The notes beneath the pieces were generated by a model. That model saw only the letters and a program-made list of their open reading frames with translations. It had not been told where the DNA came from and searched no databases. A stretch of DNA of 64,000 nucleotides. Origin: an uncultured Eubacteriales bacterium. GTDB lineage: Bacteria; Bacillota; Clostridia; Christensenellales; CAG-138. Location of the stretch: assembly GCA_900544555.1 (NCBI GenBank), contig UQWD01000003.1, forward strand, positions 66,519-130,518, written 5' to 3'. Positions 9,032-23,442 of the stretch are shown piece after piece. Position numbers and translations under genes: made by a program. Each line of letters opens with the position of its first letter. The stretch's first letter is position 1.

Positions 9032-9107
9032 TGGCACCCGGTAGGGGAGTCGAACCCCTGTTACCGCCGTGAGAGGGCGGTGTCCTAGGCCACTAGACGA
9101 ACCGAGC
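9032..9107 (-). tRNA. tRNA-Glu (anticodon CTC)
   Basis: Acceptor GCTCGGT/ACCGGGT, anticodon arm CCGCC-CTCTCAC-GGCGG, T-arm AGGGGTTCGACTCCCCT, and an encoded CCA. Confidence 0.9.
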
Positions 9108-9126
9108 TCAGTAATTCACGCATTTT

Positions 9127-9154
9127 ATTATACATTAACAAGCCGATTTGTCAA
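9127..9154 (-). promoter_or_regulatory. Sigma-A-type promoter for tRNA-Glu
   Basis: On the minus strand: TTGACA, 16-nt spacer, TATAAT, ending ~20 nt upstream of the tRNA 5' end. Confidence 0.6.
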
Positions 9155-9284
9155 CATCAAAAATCATATATTGCGGGCATGACCAAAGGGCGGCGCTTCC
9201 TATATTTTAAAGACCGGTCTTGCTATTGAGCCGAATAAAGTGTAAAATCCGATGCGTGAGCTATTTACAAGGAGGATAATTTTA

Positions 9285-10304
9285 ATGGATTATATTATAG
9301 AACAGCTTAAGAATTTAATGGCTATCGACAGCCCAAGCGGATTTACGGAAAAGGCCGCTCTATACGTAATGCGCGAATTGGAGGGGATGGGATACGGGCC
9401 GGTTTTGAACCGTAAGGGAGGCGTGCTTGTTGAACTCGGCGGGAAAGGCAACCCTCTCGTTCTTTCCGCACACGTTGATACGCTGGGCGCCATGGTGGCC
9501 GAGGTGAAATCGGACGGGCGGCTTCGCCTTACGCCCGTAGGCGGGTTGCAGCCCTCCAACGCCGAGACGGAGAACTGCCGGGTATATACGCGCTCTAACG
9601 GCGTTATCGGCGGTACGATGCAGCTTATCAACGCGTCCGTGCATGTCAATAAAGAGTATTCGTCCAAGCCGCGCAACTACGACACCGTTGAGGTTATACT
9701 GGATGAAAAGGCGTTCAGCAAGGAGGAAACGGAAAAGCTGGGCGTATCCGTTGGCGATTTTGTCTGCTTCGATACGCGCACCGTGATCACTGAATCGGGC
9801 TTTATCAAGAGCCGTTTTCTTGACGACAAGCTCAGCGTGGCTATCCTGCTTGGTTACGCAAAGCGGCTTAAGGATACCGGGTCGAAGCTGAATCGAAAGG
9901 TTTATATGCTCGTCACCCCGTATGAGGAGGTTGGGCACGGCGGGGCTGCCTTCATACCGGAGGACGCTGAGGAAATGCTTTGCGTTGATATGGGCTGCGT
10001 CGGCGAGGGCCAGACATGCGATGAGTTTAAAGTTTCGATCTGCGCGAAAGATTCGGTCGGGCCGTACGATTATCATGTCACAGGCGAGTTAATCCGCCGC
10101 GCGCAGGCGAAAGGGATAGATTATGCCGTTGATGTTTACCCGTATTACGGTTCGGACGCGGACGCGGCGCTCAGCGCGGGCCATGGCCTGCGGCATGGCT
10201 TGATAGGCGCGGGCGTGTACGCGTCCCACGGCTATGAGCGCGCGCATAAGGAAGGCGTGAAGAACACGCTTGAGCTAATTCACGCGTATACAGTTGATGA
10301 ATAA
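9285..10304 (+). CDS. M42 family glutamyl aminopeptidase (FrvX-like)
   Basis: MDYIIEQLKNLMAIDSPSGFTE..SAHVDTLG..EEVGHGGA match the family. AAGGAGG precedes ATG 9285. Confidence 0.85.
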   Translation: MDYIIEQLKNLMAIDSPSGFTEKAALYVMRELEGMGYGPVLNRKGGVLVELGGKGNPLVLSAHVDTLGAMVAEVKSDGRLRLTPVGGLQPSNAETENCRVYTRSNGVIGGTMQLINASVHVNKEYSSKPRNYDTVEVILDEKAFSKEETEKLGVSVGDFVCFDTRTVITESGFIKSRFLDDKLSVAILLGYAKRLKDTGSKLNRKVYMLVTPYEEVGHGGAAFIPEDAEEMLCVDMGCVGEGQTCDEFKVSICAKDSVGPYDYHVTGELIRRAQAKGIDYAVDVYPYYGSDADAALSAGHGLRHGLIGAGVYASHGYERAHKEGVKNTLELIHAYTVDE

Positions 10305-10321
10305 TATATTTAGTACATGTG

Positions 10322-10350
10322 TTGATTTTTTCGCATTGTTCTAATATAAT
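10322..10350 (+). promoter_or_regulatory. Sigma-A-type promoter (TTGATT-17-TATAAT)
   Basis: TTGATT at 10322-10327, an exact 17-nt spacer, and TATAAT at 10345-10350. Confidence 0.65.
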
Positions 10351-10393
10351 ATCCAATGGCAATATGCCAAAATACAGGAAAGGAGGTCGTAAG

Positions 10394-10471
10394 ATGTTTA
10401 TCGAGTGTGGAACAAGCGTAATGAACAAGGAAGGTATTACTGCATCTTTACGGCCTGCTGAGATGCTCTAA
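10394..10471 (+). CDS. 25-codon leader-type ORF upstream of ABC exporter operon
   Basis: AGGAGG lies 7 nt upstream of ATG 10394. It encodes MFIECGTSVMNKEGITASLRPAEML and is below the track size cut-off. A strong terminator follows it. Confidence 0.5.
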   Translation: MFIECGTSVMNKEGITASLRPAEML

Positions 10472-10494
10472 GCATTTGTATTGTTTAGAACTGC

Positions 10495-10526
10495 ACGGCC
10501 ACGGATGCAAATCCGTGGCCGTTTTG
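10495..10526 (+). terminator. Intrinsic terminator / candidate attenuator
   Basis: A perfect 12-bp stem ACGGCCACGGAT / ATCCGTGGCCGT with a GCAA loop, then TTTT. It lies 66 nt upstream of the ABC exporter start. Confidence 0.8.
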
Positions 10527-10591
10527 TCTCTTAAGAGCATACTGAGAGCATCCTGCAGGCTATTTGAAACGGAGAGGGGAGGGGATATGCC

Positions 10592-12427
10592 TTGGAGCAG
10601 CCCAAAAACAAGAAACGCATGAACTGGAAGCTGGTGGCGCTGACAATGCGCGGCCATAAGCGGTATTTACTGCTAGGCGCGCTGGCAATGGCCGTCGCCG
10701 TGGCCGCATCCTATATTATTCCGCTGGTTGTAAGCTTTACGCTGGATTTTGTTATCGGCGGAGTTGAAACGGATATGCCCGGCTTTATTCGCGGTTGGAT
10801 TGAACGGCAGGGCGGGCGCGAATACCTGATTAATAACCTTTATATCTGCGCGCTGGCGCTCATCGGGCTTACGCTTATCAATGGGCTTGCAACCTTTGTG
10901 CGCGGGCGATCGGTTGCTATGGCTTCGGAGGGGATGGCCAAGACGATGAAGGATGAGCTGTATTGGCACCTTCAAAGCGTACCTTACGATTACCACAAGC
11001 ACGTTTCCACGGGTGATTTGGTGCAGAGGTGCACGTCGGATGTGGATACGGTGCGCCGGTTCGTGGCGATTCAATTCCTTGAGGTCGTCAGGACAATCGT
11101 GATGGTTATCGTAGCGTGTTCCATCATGTTTTCCTTAAACCCGACCATGGCGCTTATTTCCATATGCGTTTTGCCGGTGCTGCTTGTATCATCCTTTGTA
11201 TACTTTAGGCTTGTGAGAAAGCAGTTTACGCTCTCAGACGAGGCGGAGGGCCGTTTATCCGCGACGCTGCAGGAGAACCTGACGGGCGTGCGCGTGGTGC
11301 GGGCCTTCGGCCAGCAGCAATATGAAGTTGAAAAATTCACCGCATGCAACCGGGATTTCAGGGACGTTACCTACAAGCTTCTTAAAATGCTGGGCATCTA
11401 TTGGGGCGCTTCGGACGCCATCGGCTATTTGCAGATTGCGATTACGTTGTGCGCGGGCTGTTATTTTGCCGCCACCACAGCGGATTTTACGCTGGGGCAG
11501 ATGCTCGTTTTCACAACCTACACGAGCATGCTCACATGGCCTGTACGCCAGCTCGGGCGCGTACTCGCGGATATGGGCAAGGCGACGGTTTCCATGGGGC
11601 GACTGGATGAAATCCTTTCCTACCCTAAGGAGAAGGAGCCCGGCGAAGCGATTAAGCCGGAAATCAGGGGCGATATCGAGTTTAAGAACGTGTGCTTCGG
11701 TTACGACCGATACGACGATGTGCTTAACGATATATCCTTCTCGGTACATCCCGGGGAAACTGTAGCCATACTGGGCTCTACAGGCTCGGGAAAAACGAGC
11801 CTGGTCCAGCTTTTGCAGCGGCTTTATACCTGCACGGCAGGCTCTATAGAGATTGACGGGGTGAATATCAACGATATTGAGCACGGCCATTTACGTAGGA
11901 ATATCGGCATTGTGCTTCAGGAGCCGTTCCTGTATTCTCGCACAATCCTGGATAACATCCGCATCATTAATCCGGACGCCCCGGAGGAGGCGGTCTATGA
12001 GGCCGCGCGGACCGCTTCGGTGCATAATGTTATACGCGAGTTTGAGAACGGATACGATACCATCGTGGGCGAGCGCGGGGTTACGCTTTCCGGCGGGCAG
12101 AAACAGCGCGTAGCGATTGCGCGCATGCTCATGCAAAAAGCGCCCATAATCATCTTTGACGATTCGATGAGCGCGGTGGATACGGAAACGGACGCCGCGA
12201 TTCGCCAGGCACTGCGCACGCGCAGAAAGGATACCACGACGTTTATCATTTCGCACCGCGTAACCACGCTTTGCGAGGCCGATAATATACTGGTTCTTGA
12301 GCGCGGCAGGCTGGTGCAGCAGGGTACGCATGAAGCGCTCCTTAAGGAGGACGGCCTCTACCGCCGGATCGCCAAAATACAGAACATGCAGGAAGAAATG
12401 GATGAAACGGGGGGTGAACGAGCATGA
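10592..12427 (+). CDS. ABC exporter permease/ATPase fusion, heterodimer subunit 1 (BmrC/LmrC-like)
   Basis: Six-TM domain plus NBD with GSTGSGKTS (Walker A), LSGGQKQR and IIIFDDS. Start is TTG 10592 (SD GAGGGGAGGGG) or ATG 10619. Confidence 0.85.
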   Translation: MEQPKNKKRMNWKLVALTMRGHKRYLLLGALAMAVAVAASYIIPLVVSFTLDFVIGGVETDMPGFIRGWIERQGGREYLINNLYICALALIGLTLINGLATFVRGRSVAMASEGMAKTMKDELYWHLQSVPYDYHKHVSTGDLVQRCTSDVDTVRRFVAIQFLEVVRTIVMVIVACSIMFSLNPTMALISICVLPVLLVSSFVYFRLVRKQFTLSDEAEGRLSATLQENLTGVRVVRAFGQQQYEVEKFTACNRDFRDVTYKLLKMLGIYWGASDAIGYLQIAITLCAGCYFAATTADFTLGQMLVFTTYTSMLTWPVRQLGRVLADMGKATVSMGRLDEILSYPKEKEPGEAIKPEIRGDIEFKNVCFGYDRYDDVLNDISFSVHPGETVAILGSTGSGKTSLVQLLQRLYTCTAGSIEIDGVNINDIEHGHLRRNIGIVLQEPFLYSRTILDNIRIINPDAPEEAVYEAARTASVHNVIREFENGYDTIVGERGVTLSGGQKQRVAIARMLMQKAPIIIFDDSMSAVDTETDAAIRQALRTRRKDTTTFIISHRVTTLCEADNILVLERGRLVQQGTHEALLKEDGLYRRIAKIQNMQEEMDETGGERA

Positions 12428-14277
12428 GCAGCGCTATAAAAGAGCAGGAGTTTGACAAGAAAGTCGATCTCAATATATGGAAGCGGCTTTTAAAATACGC
12501 CTTTAGATACCCAAAGCTTGTTATCGGCCTCATAGGCGTGCTTTTACTGGTGGCGGCGGTTGATCTTATCTACCCCCTTCTCACCAAGTACGCTATCGAT
12601 AACTTTATCACGAAAGGTGATATCGGCGGCCTGCCCGCTTTCGCCCTTATATACTTGGGCTTTGTGGCGATACAGGGGCTTGGGGTTTTCCTGTTTGTTT
12701 CCGGGGGAGGCAAGCTTGAGATGCGAATTTCCTACGATATTCGCCAGGAAGCGTTTGTTAAGCTTCAGGAGCTGTCCTTCTCCTTTTATGACAAGACTGC
12801 CGTTGGTTACCTGATGGCTAGAATGGTCAGCGACGTTGCGCGCCTAAGCGAGATGATTGCTTGGAGCATCATCGACCTGTTGTGGGCCGCCGCGTACGTT
12901 TTCGGCGTGATGGGCATACTTTTTACGCTCAACTGGAAGCTCGCGCTTATCGTCGTGGTCGTCATCCCTCCGCTGGCCGTGGTGTGCGGCATCTTTCAGA
13001 AAAAAATTCTCAAGTATCAGCGCAGGGTACGAAAAGCGAACTCGCGCATAACCGGAGCTTTCAACGAGGGGATCATGGGCGCGATGACGACAAAAACGCT
13101 TGTGCGCGAGGAGAAAAATACGGAGGAGTTTGTCGAGCTTACCGGGGAAATGCGCCGCGCGGCGATTAAATCCGCCGTTCTTTCCGCAATATTCATGCCC
13201 ATCGTCATGATGCTTGGGTCAATCGGCATGGCTTTGGCCCTGTATGTCGGCGGTAAGGGCGTTTTCCTCACCAACATCGGCGATCTTCCCTGGATTGGCG
13301 CTATCGGGTTTGGTACGCTTGCGGCGTTTATATCATATACCACAAGCTTTTTTGAACCCGTACAGCAGATAGCCCGGATCTTCGCTGAGCTGCAAAGCGC
13401 GCAGGCGAGCGCGGAAAGGGTAATTTCCCTAATAGACACGCCGGTTGAAATAAAGGATTCAGAGGAGGTTGTATCCGTATTCGGCGACAACTTCCATCCA
13501 AAGCGCGAGAACTGGCCGCCTATCAAAGGCGAGGTTGAGTTTGAGAACGTATCCTTCGCCTATAAGGAAGGGGAGAAGGTGCTCAATGATTTCAGCCTGC
13601 ATGTTAAGGCAGGCGAAACCATAGCGCTAGTAGGTGAAACGGGCGCTGGAAAGAGCACTATCGTAAACCTCGTATGCCGGTTTTACGAGCCGACCGGAGG
13701 GCGCGTACTCATAGACGGGGTGGATTATATGAAGCGCAGCCAGCTCTGGCTTCAGGACAGCCTGGGGTATGTGCTTCAGTCGCCGCATCTGTTTTCCGGC
13801 ACGATAAGGGATAATATCCGATATGGAAAAAGGGACGCGACGGACGAGGAGGTGCGGTACGCCGCGCGCATGGTCCACGCGGAGGATTTTATCCTCAGAC
13901 AGGAAAAGGGATATGATACTGAGGTCGGCGAGGGCGGCGTACGCCTTTCCACGGGCGAAAAGCAGCTGATATCATTCGCCAGGGTCATATTGGCGGATCC
14001 GCGTATTTTCGTGTTGGACGAGGCGACGTCTTCCATCGATACGGAAACGGAGCAGCTTATTCAGAAGGCTATAACCGAGGTGCTTAAAAACCGCACGAGC
14101 TTCATCGTGGCTCACAGGCTTTCCACAATCCGAAGCGCCGACAGGATACTGGTTATACGGGGCGGCAGAATAACTGAGGAAGGAACGCACCGGGAGCTTA
14201 TGCGCCTCAAGGGCTACTACCATGACCTTTATACCAATCAGTTCCATGAAGAAGCTTCCGAGGCGATTCTAAAATAA
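12424..14277 (+). CDS. ABC exporter permease/ATPase fusion, heterodimer subunit 2 (BmrD/LmrD-like)
   Basis: 4-nt overlap with the upstream gene. NBD motifs GETGAGKST, LSTGEKQ and IFVLDEATS. Confidence 0.85.
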   Translation: MSSAIKEQEFDKKVDLNIWKRLLKYAFRYPKLVIGLIGVLLLVAAVDLIYPLLTKYAIDNFITKGDIGGLPAFALIYLGFVAIQGLGVFLFVSGGGKLEMRISYDIRQEAFVKLQELSFSFYDKTAVGYLMARMVSDVARLSEMIAWSIIDLLWAAAYVFGVMGILFTLNWKLALIVVVVIPPLAVVCGIFQKKILKYQRRVRKANSRITGAFNEGIMGAMTTKTLVREEKNTEEFVELTGEMRRAAIKSAVLSAIFMPIVMMLGSIGMALALYVGGKGVFLTNIGDLPWIGAIGFGTLAAFISYTTSFFEPVQQIARIFAELQSAQASAERVISLIDTPVEIKDSEEVVSVFGDNFHPKRENWPPIKGEVEFENVSFAYKEGEKVLNDFSLHVKAGETIALVGETGAGKSTIVNLVCRFYEPTGGRVLIDGVDYMKRSQLWLQDSLGYVLQSPHLFSGTIRDNIRYGKRDATDEEVRYAARMVHAEDFILRQEKGYDTEVGEGGVRLSTGEKQLISFARVILADPRIFVLDEATSSIDTETEQLIQKAITEVLKNRTSFIVAHRLSTIRSADRILVIRGGRITEEGTHRELMRLKGYYHDLYTNQFHEEASEAILK

Positions 14278-18418: not shown

Positions 18419-18465
18419 CGCTTGACATTATAAGGCGCGGCGCATAAACTGTTTTTATGTATATT

Positions 18466-18699
18466 GGCGAAGACGGAGAGGAGTACGCGCGTAATTATGC
18501 GTCAGAGAGGCCGCCCCACCGGCTGAAAGGGTTGCCGGCAAAAAGGCGCGGAACGTCGCTCCCGAGCTTTCCGGGCGATATGTAGTACGGAACGGGCGCA
18601 TACCGTTATCATGCTTGAGTGGAATGTATTTTTGATGCATTCAACAAAGGTGGTACCGCGAGCCGGCCCTCTCGTCCTTTGAATGAGAGGGCTTTTGTT
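18466..18699 (+). promoter_or_regulatory. T-box leader (valine-specific) of valS
   Basis: Conserved T-box sequence AAAGGTGGTACCGCG (18647-18660). The terminator GCCCTCTCGTCCTTTGAATGAGAGGGC is followed by TTTTGTT. An AGAGA/GTAC stem I element is present. The candidate specifier GTC (Val) lies at 18555-18557, in GAACGTCG. Confidence 0.85.
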
Positions 18700-18723: not shown

Positions 18724-21366
18724 ATGGAAAGGGAAATGGAGAAGACGTATAACCATAGCGCGGTAGAAGGCAGGCTGTACGAATGTTGGGAAGAGAACGG
18801 CTGTTTTCATGCGGAGGCAAACCGCGAAAAAGATCCGTACTGCATAGTGATACCTCCGCCTAACATCACGGGAAGGCTGCATATGGGGCATGCGCTGGAT
18901 GAAACGCTTCAGGACGCGATAATCCGCTATAAGAGGATGAGCGGTTTTGAAACCCTTTGGCTGCCGGGAACGGATCACGCGTCAATAGCCACAGAGGTAA
19001 AAATCGTTGAGGAGATGGCGAAGGAGGGGCTGACGAAGCAGGAAGCCGGCCGCGGCGGTTTTCTTGAGCGCGCGTGGGAATGGAAGCGCGAGTATGGCGG
19101 GAGGATAGTGGAACAGTTAAAGAAGCTTGGCTGCTCCTGCGATTGGGAGCGGGAACGCTTCACGATGGACGAGGGCTGCAGCAGGGCTGTTACAAAGGCG
19201 TTTGTTGACCTTTATCATAAAGGGCTGATTTACAGGGGGAACCGTATAATCAACTGGTGCCCGGATTGTAAAACGGCGTTGAGCGACGCGGAGGTTGAAT
19301 ACGAAGAGCAAAGCAGCCACTTATGGCATGTACGCTACGACGCGCCGGATAAGAGCTTTTCAATCGTATGCGCGACGACGCGTCCCGAAACCATATTGGG
19401 CGATACGGGCGTGGCCGTAAACCCGAATGACGAAAGATACAAGGGGCTTATAGGAAAAAAGGTGATCGTGCCCGTTGTGGGCAGGGAGATCCCCATCGTG
19501 GCGGATTCCTATGTTGAGATGGATTTTGGAACGGGCGCGGTAAAAATAACGCCCGCCCATGACCCGAATGATTTTGAGGTTGGCGCGCGAGCAGGCTTGC
19601 CCTCCTTATGCGTATTCACCGGGGATGGACGTATCAACGAGCTGGGCGGGGAATTTGCGGGCATGGACAGGTTTGCGTGCCGCAAGGCGTTTGTTGAGGC
19701 GCTCGAGCAGGCGGGGGCGCTGGTGAAAGCGGAACCATACGCCCATAATGTGGGCGGGTGTTACCGCTGCGGGACTACGGTCGAACCGATGATATCCAAG
19801 CAGTGGTTTGTTGATATGAAGCCCCTGGCCAAACCGGCGCTTGAAGCCGTGCGCTCCGGTGAAATCCGGTTTGTGCCTCAGCGCTTCGAAAAAACCTACT
19901 TTAACTGGATGGAAAATATCCGGGACTGGTGCATATCACGGCAGCTATGGTGGGGGCATCGAATACCCGCATGGTACTGCGATGGGTGCGGGGAAACAAT
20001 CGTTGAGCAATCCGCTCCATCCTCATGCCCTAAATGCGGCGGAACGGTAAGCCAGGATGAGGATGTGCTCGATACCTGGTTCAGCTCGGGCATGTGGCCT
20101 TTTTCCACCCTGGGCTGGCCGGATGATACGGATGAGCTGGCCTATTTTTACCCGACCTCAACGCTGGTTACGGCTTATGACATCATTTTTTTCTGGGTTG
20201 CCCGCATGATCGTATTTGGTATAGAGGTAATGGGGCTTAAGCCGTTTGATACGGTATATATACACGGTATCGTACGGGATGATCAGGGGCGCAAAATGTC
20301 CAAATCCCTTGGCAACGGCATTGATCCTTTGGAAATTATACGGGATTATGGGGCGGATTCTTTGAGATTCAGCTTAATCACCGGCAACTCCGCCGGCAGC
20401 GACATGCGGTTTTACCCGAAAAAGGCAGAGGCCGCGCGCAATTTCTGCAACAAAATCTATAACGCGGCCCGCTTTGTTATCATGAACCTGGGCGAGGGGG
20501 TTTGCGGGAGCATAGACGCGAATCGAATGGATATCGCGGATAAATGGATCTTGCATCGGCTCGATTGCGTGATTCAGGACGTTACCGCTCATTTCAACGC
20601 TTATGATTTGAACTTAGCGGCTCAAAAGGCGTATGATTTTATTTGGAACGAATTCTGCGATTGGTATATTGAGATGGCAAAGCCGCGCCTTTACGGGCAA
20701 GATGAAGCGGACAAAGCGCATGTGCGGGCTGTTCTGGTGCGCGTGCTCGGCGATTCCATGAAGCTGCTCCACCCGTTCATGCCCTTTATTACGGAAGAGC
20801 TCTACTCATATTTGCCCAACGGCGAGGGCTTCCTCATGCTTTCCAAATGGCCTCGGGCTTCAGCGGATAATCAGTTTGTACGCGAGGCGGAGGCGATGGA
20901 GGGGGTAATGGATATTATCCGCGCAATACGGAATATGCGCGCCAAGATGAACGTGCCGCCCGCCAAAAAGGTTGAGCTGACGCTCGTGGCAAAGCCGGAG
21001 CGCGCCCAGGTCTGTATTATGGCTTCGGCCTACATAGCTAGGCTTGCGGGCGCGTCGCGAGTAAACGTACAGGAGGATAAACAAGGCGTGGAACCCAATG
21101 CGGTTTCCGTGGCAAGCGCGTTGGCAGAGGCGTATATCCCGCTTAACCAGCTCATTGATATTAAGAAGGAACGGGAGCGCATTGCGGGGGAAATGGATAA
21201 AACGCGCGGCGAGATAGCCCGTGCTGAAGGTAAGCTTAATAACGCCGGGTTTATCGCGAAAGCGCCCGAACGCGTAGTTGATGAGGAGCGGAAAAAGCTA
21301 TTCGCCCATCGGGAGATGCTCGATACGCTTTCAGAGCGCCTGAAGCAGTTAGAAGAGATTGAATAA
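18724..21366 (+). CDS. valS: Valine--tRNA ligase
   Basis: 880 aa with PPPNITGRLHMGH (HIGH) and KMSKS motifs and a C-terminal coiled coil. GGAGG precedes ATG 18724. The track start at 18619 lies inside the T-box. Confidence 0.95.
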   Translation: MEREMEKTYNHSAVEGRLYECWEENGCFHAEANREKDPYCIVIPPPNITGRLHMGHALDETLQDAIIRYKRMSGFETLWLPGTDHASIATEVKIVEEMAKEGLTKQEAGRGGFLERAWEWKREYGGRIVEQLKKLGCSCDWERERFTMDEGCSRAVTKAFVDLYHKGLIYRGNRIINWCPDCKTALSDAEVEYEEQSSHLWHVRYDAPDKSFSIVCATTRPETILGDTGVAVNPNDERYKGLIGKKVIVPVVGREIPIVADSYVEMDFGTGAVKITPAHDPNDFEVGARAGLPSLCVFTGDGRINELGGEFAGMDRFACRKAFVEALEQAGALVKAEPYAHNVGGCYRCGTTVEPMISKQWFVDMKPLAKPALEAVRSGEIRFVPQRFEKTYFNWMENIRDWCISRQLWWGHRIPAWYCDGCGETIVEQSAPSSCPKCGGTVSQDEDVLDTWFSSGMWPFSTLGWPDDTDELAYFYPTSTLVTAYDIIFFWVARMIVFGIEVMGLKPFDTVYIHGIVRDDQGRKMSKSLGNGIDPLEIIRDYGADSLRFSLITGNSAGSDMRFYPKKAEAARNFCNKIYNAARFVIMNLGEGVCGSIDANRMDIADKWILHRLDCVIQDVTAHFNAYDLNLAAQKAYDFIWNEFCDWYIEMAKPRLYGQDEADKAHVRAVLVRVLGDSMKLLHPFMPFITEELYSYLPNGEGFLMLSKWPRASADNQFVREAEAMEGVMDIIRAIRNMRAKMNVPPAKKVELTLVAKPERAQVCIMASAYIARLAGASRVNVQEDKQGVEPNAVSVASALAEAYIPLNQLIDIKKERERIAGEMDKTRGEIARAEGKLNNAGFIAKAPERVVDEERKKLFAHREMLDTLSERLKQLEEIE

Positions 21367-22744: not shown

Positions 22745-22821
22745 GCGCCTGTAGCTCAGCAGGATAGAGCAACGGCCTTCTAAGCCGTAGGTCCCGGGTT
22801 CGAATCCCTGCGGGCGCGCCA
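22745..22821 (+). tRNA. tRNA-Arg (TCT)
   Basis: GCGCCTGTAGCTCAG... with anticodon arm ACGGC-CTTCTAA-GCCGT and an encoded CCA. Confidence 0.9.
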
Positions 22822-22829
22822 ATTTTTGT

Positions 22830-22907
22830 GGTGGGTATAGTTCAGTTGGCTAGAACGCCAGATTGTGGCTCTGGAGGTCGTGGGTTCGAGACCCACTACT
22901 CACCCCA
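22830..22907 (+). tRNA. tRNA-His (GTG) with G-1
   Basis: Extra 5' G. Anticodon arm CCAGA-TTGTGGC-TCTGG, with the 3' end ...TACTCACCCCA. Confidence 0.9.
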
Positions 22908-22930
22908 TCTTTCAATAACGCCGGGGTTAT

Positions 22931-23005
22931 TGGGGTGTCGCCAAGCGGTAAGGCACGGGACTTTGACTCCCGCACTCGTAGGTTCAAATCCTGCCACCCC
23001 AGCCA
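22931..23005 (+). tRNA. tRNA-Gln (TTG)
   Basis: TGGGGTG acceptor. Anticodon arm CGGGA-CTTTGAC-TCCCG, with the 3' end CACCCCAGCCA. Confidence 0.9.
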
Positions 23006-23010
23006 TTTTT

Positions 23011-23086
23011 GACCCGTTAGCTCAGCCGGTAGAGCACTTGACTTTTAATCAAGGTGTCCGGAGTTCGAATCTCCGACGGGTCACCA
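23011..23086 (+). tRNA. tRNA-Lys (TTT)
   Basis: GACCCGTTAGCTCAG... with anticodon arm CTTGA-CTTTTAA-TCAAG. Confidence 0.9.
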
Positions 23087-23101
23087 TTTTTCTATCTGTA
23101 A

Positions 23102-23186
23102 GCGGGCGTGGCGGAATTGGCAGACGCGCCAGATTTAGGTTCTGGTGCCAAAAGGCGTATGAGTTCGAGTCTCTTCGCCCGCACCA
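23102..23186 (+). tRNA. tRNA-Leu (TAG)
   Basis: 85 nt with a long variable arm and anticodon arm CCAGA-TTTAGGT-TCTGG. Confidence 0.9.
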
Positions 23187-23201
23187 TTTACCTTTTTCCT
23201 T

Positions 23202-23277
23202 GCGGGAATAGCTCATTCGGTAGAGCGCCGCCTTGCCAAGGCGGAGGTGGCGGGTTCGAACCCCGTTTCCCGCTCCA
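23202..23277 (+). tRNA. tRNA-Gly (GCC)
   Basis: GCGGGAATAGCTCA... with anticodon arm CCGCC-TTGCCAA-GGCGG. Confidence 0.9.
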
Positions 23278-23283
23278 GAAAAC

Positions 23284-23357
23284 GCGGATGTAGTGTAATG
23301 GTAACACATTAGCCTTCCAAGCTGAGATAGTGGGTTCGAGTCCCATCATCCGCTCCA
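23284..23357 (+). tRNA. tRNA-Gly (TCC)
   Basis: GCGGATGTAGTGTAATGG... with anticodon loop CTTCCAA. Confidence 0.9.
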
Positions 23358-23366
23358 GCAAAATAT

Positions 23367-23442
23367 GGGCCGTTAGCTCAGTTGGTAGAGCACCTGACTC
23401 TTAATCAGGGTGTCCCGGGTTCGAGCCCCTGACGGCCCACCA
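23367..23442 (+). tRNA. tRNA-Lys (CTT)
   Basis: GGGCCGTTAGCTCAG... with anticodon arm CCTGA-CTCTTAA-TCAGG. Confidence 0.9.

What the first reader, a model, noticed from the sequence alone, without database searches (positions are those of the whole stretch)
10322..10591. Leader ORF plus strong terminator in front of a BmrCD-like heterodimeric ABC exporter (candidate ribosome-mediated attenuator)
Seen in sequence:
- A near-consensus promoter (TTGATT-17-TATAAT).
- AGGAGG and a 25-codon ORF (MFIECGTSVMNKEGITASLRPAEML).
- A perfect 12-bp GCAA-loop terminator with a U-run.
- Only 66 nt then separate it from the first of two overlapping ABC half-transporter genes, and I see no second promoter.
- GGCCTGC inside the ORF (10452-10458) can pair with GCACGGCC (10493-10500), which includes the 5' arm of the terminator. 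This is a possible anti-terminator that would form only when ribosomes do not reach the ORF end.

Established knowledge: B. subtilis bmrCD is controlled by the bmrB leader peptide through antibiotic-responsive transcription attenuation.

Inference: this operon is induced by translation stress through an unrelated, much shorter leader.
Basis: partly seen in the sequence, partly recalled or inferred. Interest (0 to 1): 0.55.

Follow-up and report, generated by a model that had tools for sequence, protein, structure and literature searches.

The report
Leader-ORF attenuator before ABC exporter
A short translated leader and a strong terminator, conserved with base-pairing covariation in front of one clade of two-gene ABC exporters in uncultured Clostridia, probably let the cell switch the pump on when ribosomes are slowed: a new variant of a known kind of control, not yet tested experimentally.

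Summary
The main correction is that the leader ORF runs 10394-10471.

Comparison with 170 related loci shows the arrangement is conserved, not chance. At least 26 distinct relatives of this ABC pair (43-98% identity) carry the same elements:
- their own sigma-A promoter
- a GAAAGGAGG ribosome-binding site
- a 21-51 codon ORF of unconserved sequence
- a strong terminator, which in about ten of them ends only 17-37 nt before the ABC start codon

The leader's own ribosome-binding site and start codon (10380-10397) pair with codons 16-22 (10441-10460). This helix has dG -22.3 and z -6, and it covaries across the family (permutation p=2e-4). That 3' strand can instead pair with the terminator's 5' arm. 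This second pairing is weak in the window (-12.4) but significant across the family (p<=0.005).

The result is a classical 1:2 / 2:3 / 3:4 attenuator whose first strand is the leader's ribosome-binding site.

The pump is a generic heterodimeric exporter with one degenerate ATP site. It is not a BmrCD orthologue, and the leader differs from bmrB. The inducing signal (slowed translation) remains inferred.

Verdict: new variant of a known kind; moderate interest.

The parts
10322..10350 (+). Sigma-A-type promoter: TTGATT (10322-27), 17 nt, TATAAT (10345-50)
   Evidence: 10/12 match. An equivalent promoter (>=9/12, often with a TG extension) sits 23-84 nt upstream of the leader start in 21/26 homologous leaders. 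49/52 nt identical in L081.
10357..10369 (+). 5'-terminal hairpin TGGCA-ATA-TGCCA at the predicted transcript start, followed by an A-rich stretch
   Evidence: formed in every fold. A comparable hairpin right after the -10 box is present in many but not all homologues. Weakened in L081 (10360C>T, 10361A>T). Role inferred (mRNA 5' stabiliser).
10380..10397 (+). Segment 1: leader Shine-Dalgarno (AGGAGG 10381-86), spacer and ATG (10394-96); 5' strand of helix P1
   Evidence: pairs with 10441-10460, dG -22.3 kcal/mol, z -6.0. The only change in L081, 10384 A>G, keeps the pair as G.U.
10394..10471 (+). Leader ORF, 25 codons, MFIECGTSVMNKEGITASLRPAEML
   Evidence: The frame is open in 26/26 leaders against 5/26 and 11/26 for the other two frames. 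The peptide sequence is not conserved.
10441..10460 (+). Segment 2: 3' strand of P1 (codons 16-22). Alternatively pairs with the terminator 5' arm as the anti-terminator strand
   Evidence: 19/20 nt identical in L081, against ~80% at neutral sites.
10465..10494 (+). Hairpin P2, which contains the leader stop codon (10469-71)
   Evidence: Similar stop-codon hairpins occur in L007, L008, L011, L016-L018. The only change in L081 is in its loop (10481T>C). Role unknown (possible pause element, inferred).
10495..10532 (+). Intrinsic terminator: 12-bp stem, GCAA loop (10495-10522), interrupted U tract TTTGTCTCTT
   Evidence: Hairpin dG -23.5. In L081 the first pair A-U becomes G.U and the loop GCAA becomes GCGA, still GNRA. 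Homologous terminators in register in the near clade.
10545..10560 (+). Downstream strand of a long-range helix with 10452-10469 that encloses P2 and the terminator in read-through RNA
   Evidence: MFE and centroid. L081 10549 C>T keeps the pair as G.U. Family-level p=0.004. Function unexplained.
10576..10585 (+). Ribosome-binding site of ABC1 (GGGGAGGGGA), 6-7 nt before TTG 10592
   Evidence: The same TTG start was called in L081 and L084 by the source annotations.
10592..12427 (+). ABC1 half-transporter (611 aa): Walker B IIIFDD (no catalytic Glu), signature LSGGQ
12424..14277 (+). ABC2 half-transporter (617 aa): Walker B FVLDE, degenerate signature LSTGE; overlaps ABC1 by 4 nt

Best explanation
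This is a ribosome-dependent transcription attenuator for a two-gene ABC exporter operon.

Shown from sequence and comparison:
- Transcription starts at about 10357.
- The leader RNA has four interacting strands. Segment 1 is the leader's own Shine-Dalgarno and AUG (10380-97). Segment 2 is codons 16-22 (10441-60). Segments 3 and 4 are the two arms of the terminator (10495-10522).
- No promoter lies between the terminator and the ABC genes, so they can only be expressed by read-through.

Inferred mechanism:
- If no ribosome holds the leader, segments 1 and 2 form a very stable helix. This shuts the leader ribosome-binding site and leaves 3:4 free to terminate.
- The same happens once a fast ribosome has passed segment 2 and reached the stop codon at 10469.
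- If a ribosome is still sitting on the start codon or in the first ~15 codons when RNA polymerase makes the terminator, segment 1 cannot pair. Segment 2 then pairs with the terminator's 5' arm, and polymerase reads on into ABC1/ABC2.
- Because the peptide sequence is free to vary, the sensor would be ribosome occupancy or speed in general, not a specific arrest peptide or a specific amino acid. Possible triggers are ribosome-targeting antibiotics or other translation slow-down.
For: Anatomy:
- Anatomy confirmed.
- Helix 1:2 in the window: dG -22.3, z -6.0. It is present in the MFE.

Family:
- The same architecture occurs in about 26 distinct leaders upstream of ABC1 relatives at 43-98% identity. 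Only ~4 weak hits appear among ~85 paralogues at <=40% identity.

Alignment-free covariation tests:
- Cognate 1:2 energy -21.1 against -15.9 when partners are permuted among loci, p=2e-4. With the exact strands, -21.1 against -13.9.
- Explicit compensatory changes: GGTCGTAAGATG/CATCTTTACGGCC in the window against GGTCGTGACATG/CATGCACGGCC in L083.
- 2:3 pairing is significant, p=2e-4 and p=0.005.
- The control pairings 1:3, 2:4 and 1:4 are not significant (p=0.63, 0.29, 0.32).
- Masking segment 1 shifts the partners of the terminator 5' arm onto segment 2 in the window and several homologues.

Window against its 98%-identical relative L081:
- The structural segments are 103/108 nt identical, against ~80% at ABC third codon positions.
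- All 5 changes are G.U-compatible or fall in loops or an unpaired helix-edge base.
- Codons 2-16 are 77% identical with 6 amino-acid changes, yet the frame and length are kept.

ORF: the leader frame is open in 26/26 loci, against 5/26 and 11/26 for the other frames. The stop lies -2 to +28 nt after segment 2 in 25 of 26.

Read-through is required:
- The terminator ends 17-37 nt before the ABC start in about ten loci.
- No promoter-like site lies between 10350 and 10963.

The leader travels with the ABC pair. Upstream genes differ and are often divergent.

Precedent: bmrB-bmrCD (PMC4191407).
Against: - There is no expression data of any kind.
- The 2:3 pairing in this window is weak. It is -12.4 against -23.5 for the terminator, and z is -0.75 against shuffles. 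It would have to act kinetically.
- In 8/26 leaders the stop codon is more than 15 nt past segment 2. The model therefore needs P1 re-formation rather than ribosome masking of segment 2.
- The U tract is interrupted, so basal read-through may be high.
- Several close relatives (64-66% identity) have no leader at all and sit 9 nt behind priA. The control is therefore dispensable.
- Whether transcription and translation are coupled tightly enough in this organism is unknown.
- The permutation tests do not fully remove phylogenetic relatedness.
Confidence: 0.6

Rival explanations
1. The terminator is a constitutive, leaky insulator. It sets a fixed low level of ABC expression. The small ORF with its self-sequestering ribosome-binding site is an independent small gene or a stabilising 5' module. 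Read-through does not depend on leader translation.
For: - The interrupted U tract suggests partial termination.
- The 2:3 pairing in the window is not better than shuffles.
- The 5' hairpin plus strong Shine-Dalgarno resembles known mRNA stabilisers (own knowledge).
- Relatives lacking the leader exist.
Against: - The peptide is not conserved even at 98% ABC identity, so a functional small protein is unlikely.
- Segment 2 shows specific complementarity to both segment 1 and the terminator 5' arm, while the control pairings do not.
- The ORF end is positioned consistently between segment 2 and the terminator.
Confidence: 0.17
2. The logic is the opposite. Active translation of the leader is what allows read-through, for example because the ribosome opens P1 and an alternative structure or the ribosome itself disrupts the terminator. 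The exporter would then be made only when translation is healthy, and transcription would stop when ribosomes are scarce.
For: - With no ribosome the model also predicts termination, because P1 forms.
- GGCC cores are palindromic, so segment 1 could in principle pair with the terminator arm. In the window this 1:3 pairing is -9.6.
Against: - The 1:3 pairing shows no cognate specificity (p=0.63).
- The stop codon is 23 nt upstream of the terminator (median about 24 nt in the family). A terminating ribosome therefore cannot touch the hairpin.
Confidence: 0.1
3. A ligand- or protein-binding RNA (a riboswitch or a target of an antiterminator protein) controls the terminator. The ORF is incidental.
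For: - The structured leader has conserved helices.
- A T-box in the same window shows that this genome uses RNA-based attenuation.
Against: - No Rfam family matched, even at E<=10 in the window and at gathering level in 12 homologous loci.
- The region enclosed by P1 is variable in length (about 40-130 nt) and in sequence, evolving at about the neutral rate. This is unlike an aptamer.
- A strong Shine-Dalgarno at the correct spacing and an open frame occur in 26/26.
Confidence: 0.06
4. The terminator simply ends the upstream M42 peptidase transcript. The promoter and ORF are chance matches.
For: No terminator lies between the peptidase stop (10304) and 10495.
Against: The leader and terminator are found with the ABC pair behind unrelated or divergently transcribed neighbours. 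These include GroEL, an aminotransferase, PFK, a Lon-like gene, a SpoU methylase and a hydrolase.
Confidence: 0.02

Closest known systems
bmrB-bmrCD ribosome-mediated transcription attenuator of Bacillus subtilis (Reilman et al. 2014, PMC4191407)
   Same: Both have a short leader ORF and an intrinsic terminator in front of two genes for a heterodimeric ABC exporter. [quoted passage not shown] In bmrB, read-through was raised by chloramphenicol, erythromycin and lincomycin.
   Different: [quoted passage not shown]
- Here the ORF has 25 codons, the terminator starts 23 nt after the stop, and the anti-anti-terminator strand is the leader's own Shine-Dalgarno and AUG.
- The exporters are not specific orthologues.
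Classical leader-peptide attenuators (E. coli trpL type: 1:2, 2:3, 3:4)
   Same: Both have four-strand logic, with an anti-antiterminator, an anti-terminator and a terminator. The outcome is set by ribosome position (own knowledge; summarised in PMC4191407).
   Different: - There are no regulatory codon runs, and the peptide is unconserved.
- Strand 1 is the ribosome-binding site rather than codons inside the ORF.
- The downstream genes encode an exporter, not a biosynthetic operon.
patAB attenuator of Streptococcus pneumoniae (Baylay and Piddock 2015, PMC4319486)
   Same: [quoted passage not shown] Terminator mutations de-repress the pump.
   Different: The patA leader is only 67 nt. The terms 'open reading frame' and 'riboswitch' do not occur in the paper's text, and the passages read mention no leader ORF; the sensing mechanism was not investigated there. 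There is no sequence relationship.
Leader-ORF attenuators of ARE-ABCF and erm resistance genes (vmlR, msrD, cplR, ermC)
   Same: A short upstream ORF lets a drug-stalled ribosome remodel the leader RNA (papers listed; own knowledge).
   Different: Those control ribosome-protection or methylase genes, usually with very short ORFs or conserved arrest peptides. Here the downstream genes are membrane exporters and the peptide is unconstrained.

Membership tests
Ribosome-dependent (leader-ORF) transcription attenuators, generic class | Promoter-proximal short ORF with a functional-looking ribosome-binding site | tested here: met
   AGGAGG lies 7 nt before the ATG. A GAAAGGAGG-type Shine-Dalgarno and an open frame occur in 26/26 homologous leaders, against 5/26 and 11/26 for the other frames.
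Ribosome-dependent (leader-ORF) transcription attenuators, generic class | Intrinsic terminator between the leader and the structural genes, with no separate promoter downstream | tested here: met
   There is a 12-bp terminator at 10495-10522 and no promoter-like site between 10350 and 10963. The gap from terminator to ABC start is 17-37 nt in about ten homologues.
Ribosome-dependent (leader-ORF) transcription attenuators, generic class | Mutually exclusive anti-terminator that overlaps both the terminator and the translated region | tested here: inconclusive
   In the window the 2:3 duplex is -12.4 kcal/mol, z -0.75. Across the family, cognate pairs beat permuted pairs at p=2e-4 and p=0.005, while control pairings are not significant.
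Ribosome-dependent (leader-ORF) transcription attenuators, generic class | Read-through depends on leader translation or ribosome stalling | not testable with these tools
   Needs Term-seq, reporter or toeprint experiments.
bmrB-bmrCD system (B. subtilis) | Terminator and alternative structures lie inside a ~54-codon leader ORF | tested here: not met
   The ORF has 25 codons and ends at 10471. The terminator starts at 10495. For bmrB.
bmrB-bmrCD system (B. subtilis) | Downstream genes are orthologous to BmrC (YheI) and BmrD (YheH) | tested here: not met
   ABC1 scores 290 bits against YheI, but 310 against Sav1866, 305 against TM288 and 298 against TmrB. ABC2 scores 326 against YheH, but 377 against TmrA and 364 against TM288. 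No NCBIfam equivalog reaches its cut-off.
bmrB-bmrCD system (B. subtilis) | Leader peptide homologous to BmrB | not tested
The peptides of this family are not conserved even among themselves.
Heterodimeric type IV (ABCB-like) exporters with one degenerate ATP site | Two adjacent half-transporter genes, each with a TMD (ABC_membrane) and an NBD (ABC_tran) | tested here: met
   The genes overlap by 4 nt.
Heterodimeric type IV (ABCB-like) exporters with one degenerate ATP site | One NBD lacks the catalytic Glu, and the partner carries a degenerate signature motif | tested here: met
   ABC1 has Walker B IIIFDD and signature LSGGQ. ABC2 has Walker B FVLDE and signature LSTGE.
Known structured RNA families (Rfam 15: riboswitches, T-box, protein-binding leaders) | Match to a curated covariance model | tested here: not met
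   Nothing relevant at E<=10 in 10250-10650. Nothing at gathering score in the window's leader or in 12 homologous loci.
Amino-acid-sensing attenuators (trp/his/leu type) | Run of codons for the regulatory amino acid in the leader | tested here: not met
   The window peptide has no repeated residue run. No conserved residue or codon occurs across leaders.

The most novel reading that the evidence does not exclude
This would be a previously undescribed, widespread class of attenuator in gut and anaerobic-digester Clostridia. The leader's own ribosome-binding site is the first strand of the switch.
- Only a ribosome that loads during transcription, before segment 2 emerges, can affect the outcome, and the ribosome-binding site closes again afterwards.
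- The element therefore reports ribosome loading and speed, independent of the peptide sequence.
- It would make one clade of heterodimeric ABC exporters a general efflux response to translation stress or antibiotics in commensal Clostridia.
- Alternative leader types, such as the conserved ...DSTFYT peptide in Clostridium sensu stricto, appear to have been swapped in at the same gene pair.
Probability: 0.35. Interest if true: 0.6.

Novelty: new variant of a known kind. Interest (0 to 1): 0.45.

Why it matters
If the model holds, one clade of uncharacterised two-gene ABC exporters in uncultured Clostridia is switched on by a sensor that reads ribosome occupancy directly. Many of these organisms come from gut metagenomes. 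This gives a testable hypothesis: these pumps are inducible drug or stress efflux systems of commensals.

It also adds a cleanly covarying design to the catalogue of leader-ORF attenuators. In this design the ribosome-binding site itself is the anti-antiterminator strand. The design is absent from Rfam, and I found no description of it in the searchable literature.

The regulatory principle itself is well known, so the finding extends a known theme rather than overturning it.

Tried and rejected
1. Rfam, at gathering and permissive thresholds, on the window and on 12 homologous loci: no family.
2. The terminator as the 3' end of the upstream peptidase gene: rejected, because neighbours differ and are often divergent.
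3. A second promoter after the terminator: none found, and there is no room in about ten homologues.
4. Alternative pairings 1:3, 2:4 and 1:4: no cognate specificity.
5. A specific BmrCD orthology: not supported.
6. A conserved leader peptide or arrest motif: not found. The N-terminal half evolves at about the neutral rate.
7. Other copies of the motif in the 64-kb window: none. The other hits of the detector have much weaker combined scores and were not examined further.
8. A covariance model: two MAFFT alignments (A1 and A2) put the terminator and segment 2 in register. They did not do so for segment 1 in all sequences, because of variable spacers and bulges. I therefore did not build a model or use the count of structure pairs, and relied on alignment-free permutation tests instead.
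9. Literature searches for this leader type in Clostridia returned nothing specific.

Full report
**1. The observation**

- Promoter: TTGATT (10322-27), 17 nt, TATAAT (10345-50), a 10/12 match in the scan.
- Ribosome-binding site: AGGAGG at 10381-86, seven bases before an ATG at 10394.
- Leader ORF: 25 codons (MFIECGTSVMNKEGITASLRPAEML) ending with TAA at 10469-71. The ORF listing shows the same frame closing at 10471.
- Terminator: a perfect 12-bp stem with a GCAA loop at 10495-10522, followed by TTTGTCTCTT.
- ABC genes: ABC1 starts with TTG at 10592, behind a GGGGAGGGGA ribosome-binding site. ABC2 (12424-14277) overlaps it by 4 nt.

No + strand promoter-like site lies between 10350 and 10963. 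The RNA from 10357 to 10600 folds better than all 200 shuffles, z -3.3.

Small corrections: the U run is interrupted, and the stem-to-start distance is 69 nt.

**2. Surroundings and the exporter**

The window comes from a spore-forming member of the Clostridia. spoVA genes lie at 5.9-7.8 kb.
- Upstream of the leader is an M42 peptidase gene (9252-10304).
- Downstream of the operon is a 5'-nucleotidase gene.

Both ABC proteins are TMD-NBD half-transporters.
- ABC1 has Walker B IIIFDD, with no catalytic Glu, and a canonical LSGGQ signature.
- ABC2 has Walker B FVLDE and a degenerate LSTGE signature.

This is the one-degenerate-site heterodimer design of TM287/288, TmrAB and BmrCD.

Against solved structures, BmrC and BmrD are not the closest matches.
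- ABC1: Sav1866 310 bits, TM288 305, TmrB 298, YheI 290.
- ABC2: TmrA 377, TM288 364, YheH 326.

No NCBIfam equivalog reaches its cut-off. 'BmrCD-like' is therefore true of the class only.

**3. Relatives**

Scans of one-genome-per-species contigs and of metagenome contigs, plus exact-protein look-ups, gave 170 loci.

All relatives at 70% ABC1 identity or more carry a leader.
- They are L081 (98%), L082/83, L084/85, L167, L168, L169, L170 and L001/L087.
- Most keep the order M42 peptidase, leader, ABC, ABC, nucleotidase.

An automated detector looked for a strong Shine-Dalgarno, a start codon, a 14-65 codon ORF, a terminator of dG <= -8 and a P1 duplex.
- It found leaders in nearly all loci at 43% identity or more that have an intergenic region. 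This amounts to about 26 distinct sequences.
- Among ~85 paralogues at 40% identity or less it gave only ~4 weak hits.

I read the negatives at 43% or more by eye.
- Some sit 9 nt behind priA (L002 group).
- Some sit behind a Cof-type HAD hydrolase (L020 group).
- Some carry a different leader type.
- None has the RNA motif without the ORF.

Upstream neighbours of leader-bearing loci are diverse and often divergently transcribed. They include GroEL, an aminotransferase, phosphofructokinase, a Lon-like ATPase, a DUF4838 hydrolase, a SpoU methylase and an alpha/beta hydrolase.

A sigma-A promoter of at least 9/12 precedes 21 of 26 leaders.

In about ten loci the terminator ends only 17-37 nt before the ABC start codon. 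The exporter genes must therefore be transcribed through the terminator.

**4. The conserved RNA design**

- In the window it has dG -22.3 kcal/mol and z -6.0. None of 200 shuffles is as good.
- It is part of the MFE.
- The same pairing exists in the homologues although the sequences differ. Examples are GGTCGCG/CGCGACC in L004, GGCTGCG/CGCAGCC in L013-L018, GGCCGCG/CGCGGCC in L019 and GAGCCGCTGAG/CTCAGGCGGCTC in L006.
- Against the window, L083 shows two compensatory pair changes.

*Permutation tests.* Because spacers and bulges vary, MAFFT alignments were not in register for segment 1. I therefore used an alignment-free test. Duplex energies of cognate strand pairs were compared with energies after permuting partners among 26 non-redundant loci.

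| Pairing | Cognate (kcal/mol) | Permuted (kcal/mol) | p |
|---|---|---|---|
| 1:2 | -21.1 | -15.9 | 2e-4 |
| 2:3 (segment-2 region with terminator 5' arm) | -15.7 | -13.1 | 2e-4 |
| 2:3 (exact segment 2) | -11.4 | -10.1 | 0.005 |
| 1:3 (control) | -8.6 | -8.7 | 0.63 |
| 2:4 (control) | -9.1 | -8.9 | 0.29 |
| 1:4 (control) | -9.1 | -8.9 | 0.32 |

*The anti-terminator.* In the window, segment 1 resembles the terminator 5' arm and segment 2 resembles its 3' arm.
- With segment 1 masked and the transcript cut at the terminator loop, segment 2 pairs with 10493-10508.
- That pairing is only -12.4 kcal/mol and is no better than shuffles for this one sequence.
- Masking segment 1 shifts the partners of the terminator arm onto segment 2 in the window and in L001, L004, L007, L011, L014, L018 and L024.

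**5. Selection pattern**

I compared the window with L081.

| Region | Identity |
|---|---|
| ABC third codon positions (taken as the neutral rate) | about 80% |
| Segment 1, segment 2, P2 and the terminator | 103/108 nt |
| Codons 2-16 of the leader | 77% |

- All five changes in the structural segments are harmless. A>G at 10384 and at 10495 each keep a G.U pair. GCAA>GCGA keeps a GNRA loop. The other two changes fall in a loop and in an unpaired helix-edge base.
- Codons 2-16 carry six amino-acid replacements, yet length and frame are kept.
- The same pattern is seen between L084 and L168 and within the L017 group.

Across 26 leaders the leader frame is open in all. The other two frames are open in 5 and 11.
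- The stop lies -2 to +28 nt past segment 2 in 25 of 26.
- It usually lies 6-35 nt before the terminator.

Selection therefore acts on the RNA strands and on the existence and extent of the ORF, not on the peptide.

**6. Mechanism**

This section is inference. The anatomy is that of a 1:2 / 2:3 / 3:4 attenuator whose strand 1 is the leader ribosome-binding site.
- *No ribosome, or a ribosome that has already cleared segment 2:* P1 forms. The ribosome-binding site is closed, and the terminator stops transcription.
- *A ribosome still on the start codon or within the first ~15 codons when polymerase reaches 10495-10530:* P1 cannot form, since its loop is too short to hold a ribosome. Segment 2 pairs with the terminator's 5' arm, and the operon is read through.

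The unconstrained peptide argues for a general sensor of ribosome occupancy or speed. It argues against a drug-specific arrest peptide or an amino-acid sensor. Drugs that trap ribosomes at or near initiation would fit particularly well, but this is speculation.

**7. Comparison with known systems**

*bmrB-bmrCD* is the functional precedent. In that system the 54-codon ORF contains the terminator and both alternative structures. Chloramphenicol, erythromycin and lincomycin raise read-through (PMC4191407). Here the geometry differs and the exporters are not orthologous.

No Rfam family matches. Literature searches found no description of this leader.

I classify it as a new variant of a known kind.

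**8. Open points**

- A long-range helix (10452-69 with 10545-60) encloses the terminator in read-through RNA. It is compatible with the L081 substitution and has analogues elsewhere. Its role is unknown.
- In 8 of 26 leaders the stop is too far from segment 2 for a terminating ribosome to mask it.
- No expression data exist. The inducing signal is unproven.

Noticed in passing
L015:3876-3933, L040:3844-3904, L093 about 2390-2450: In Clostridium sensu stricto relatives of the same ABC clade (~51% identity) the leader is a different type. It is an 18-20 codon ORF with a conserved C-terminus (K/C)(W/Y)DSTFY(T/S)-stop, 40-47 nt before the ABC start, and no convincing terminator was found (only a weak -4 kcal/mol hairpin in L015). 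A conserved peptide end suggests control that depends on the nascent peptide.
   Followed up: partly
L002:3979-3989; also L003, L005, L092, L102: The relatives at 64-66% identity lack any leader. The ABC pair starts 9 nt after priA, so it is probably co-transcribed. The attenuator is therefore dispensable or was gained or lost.
   Followed up: yes
window 10452-10469 and 10545-10560: A 14-bp long-range helix encloses the terminator in the read-through transcript. A C>T change in the 98% relative keeps pairing as G.U. Its function is unknown.
   Followed up: partly
window 18461-18682: A T-box leader (108 bits, above the gathering score) lies in front of a class-I aminoacyl-tRNA synthetase gene with a Val-tRNA-synthetase C-terminal arm, ending at 21366.
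   Followed up: partly
window 9035-9154 (- strand): A tRNA gene (9035-9107, - strand) is preceded by a perfect consensus promoter, TTGACA-16-TATAAT, at 9154 to 9127.
   Followed up: no
window 22745-23439: A cluster of nine tRNA genes lies on the + strand.
   Followed up: no
window 10398-10417: Codons 2-8 of the leader differ at 8 of 20 nt from the 98% relative. This is above the ~20% divergence at ABC third codon positions. The numbers are small, so this could be relaxed or diversifying selection, or chance.
   Followed up: no
window 10343-10370 (- strand): Two promoter-like matches on the minus strand overlap the leader promoter and the 5' hairpin. There is no minus-strand gene for them to serve before the tRNA at 9107. 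They are probably a by-product of the AT-rich palindromic sequence.
   Followed up: no
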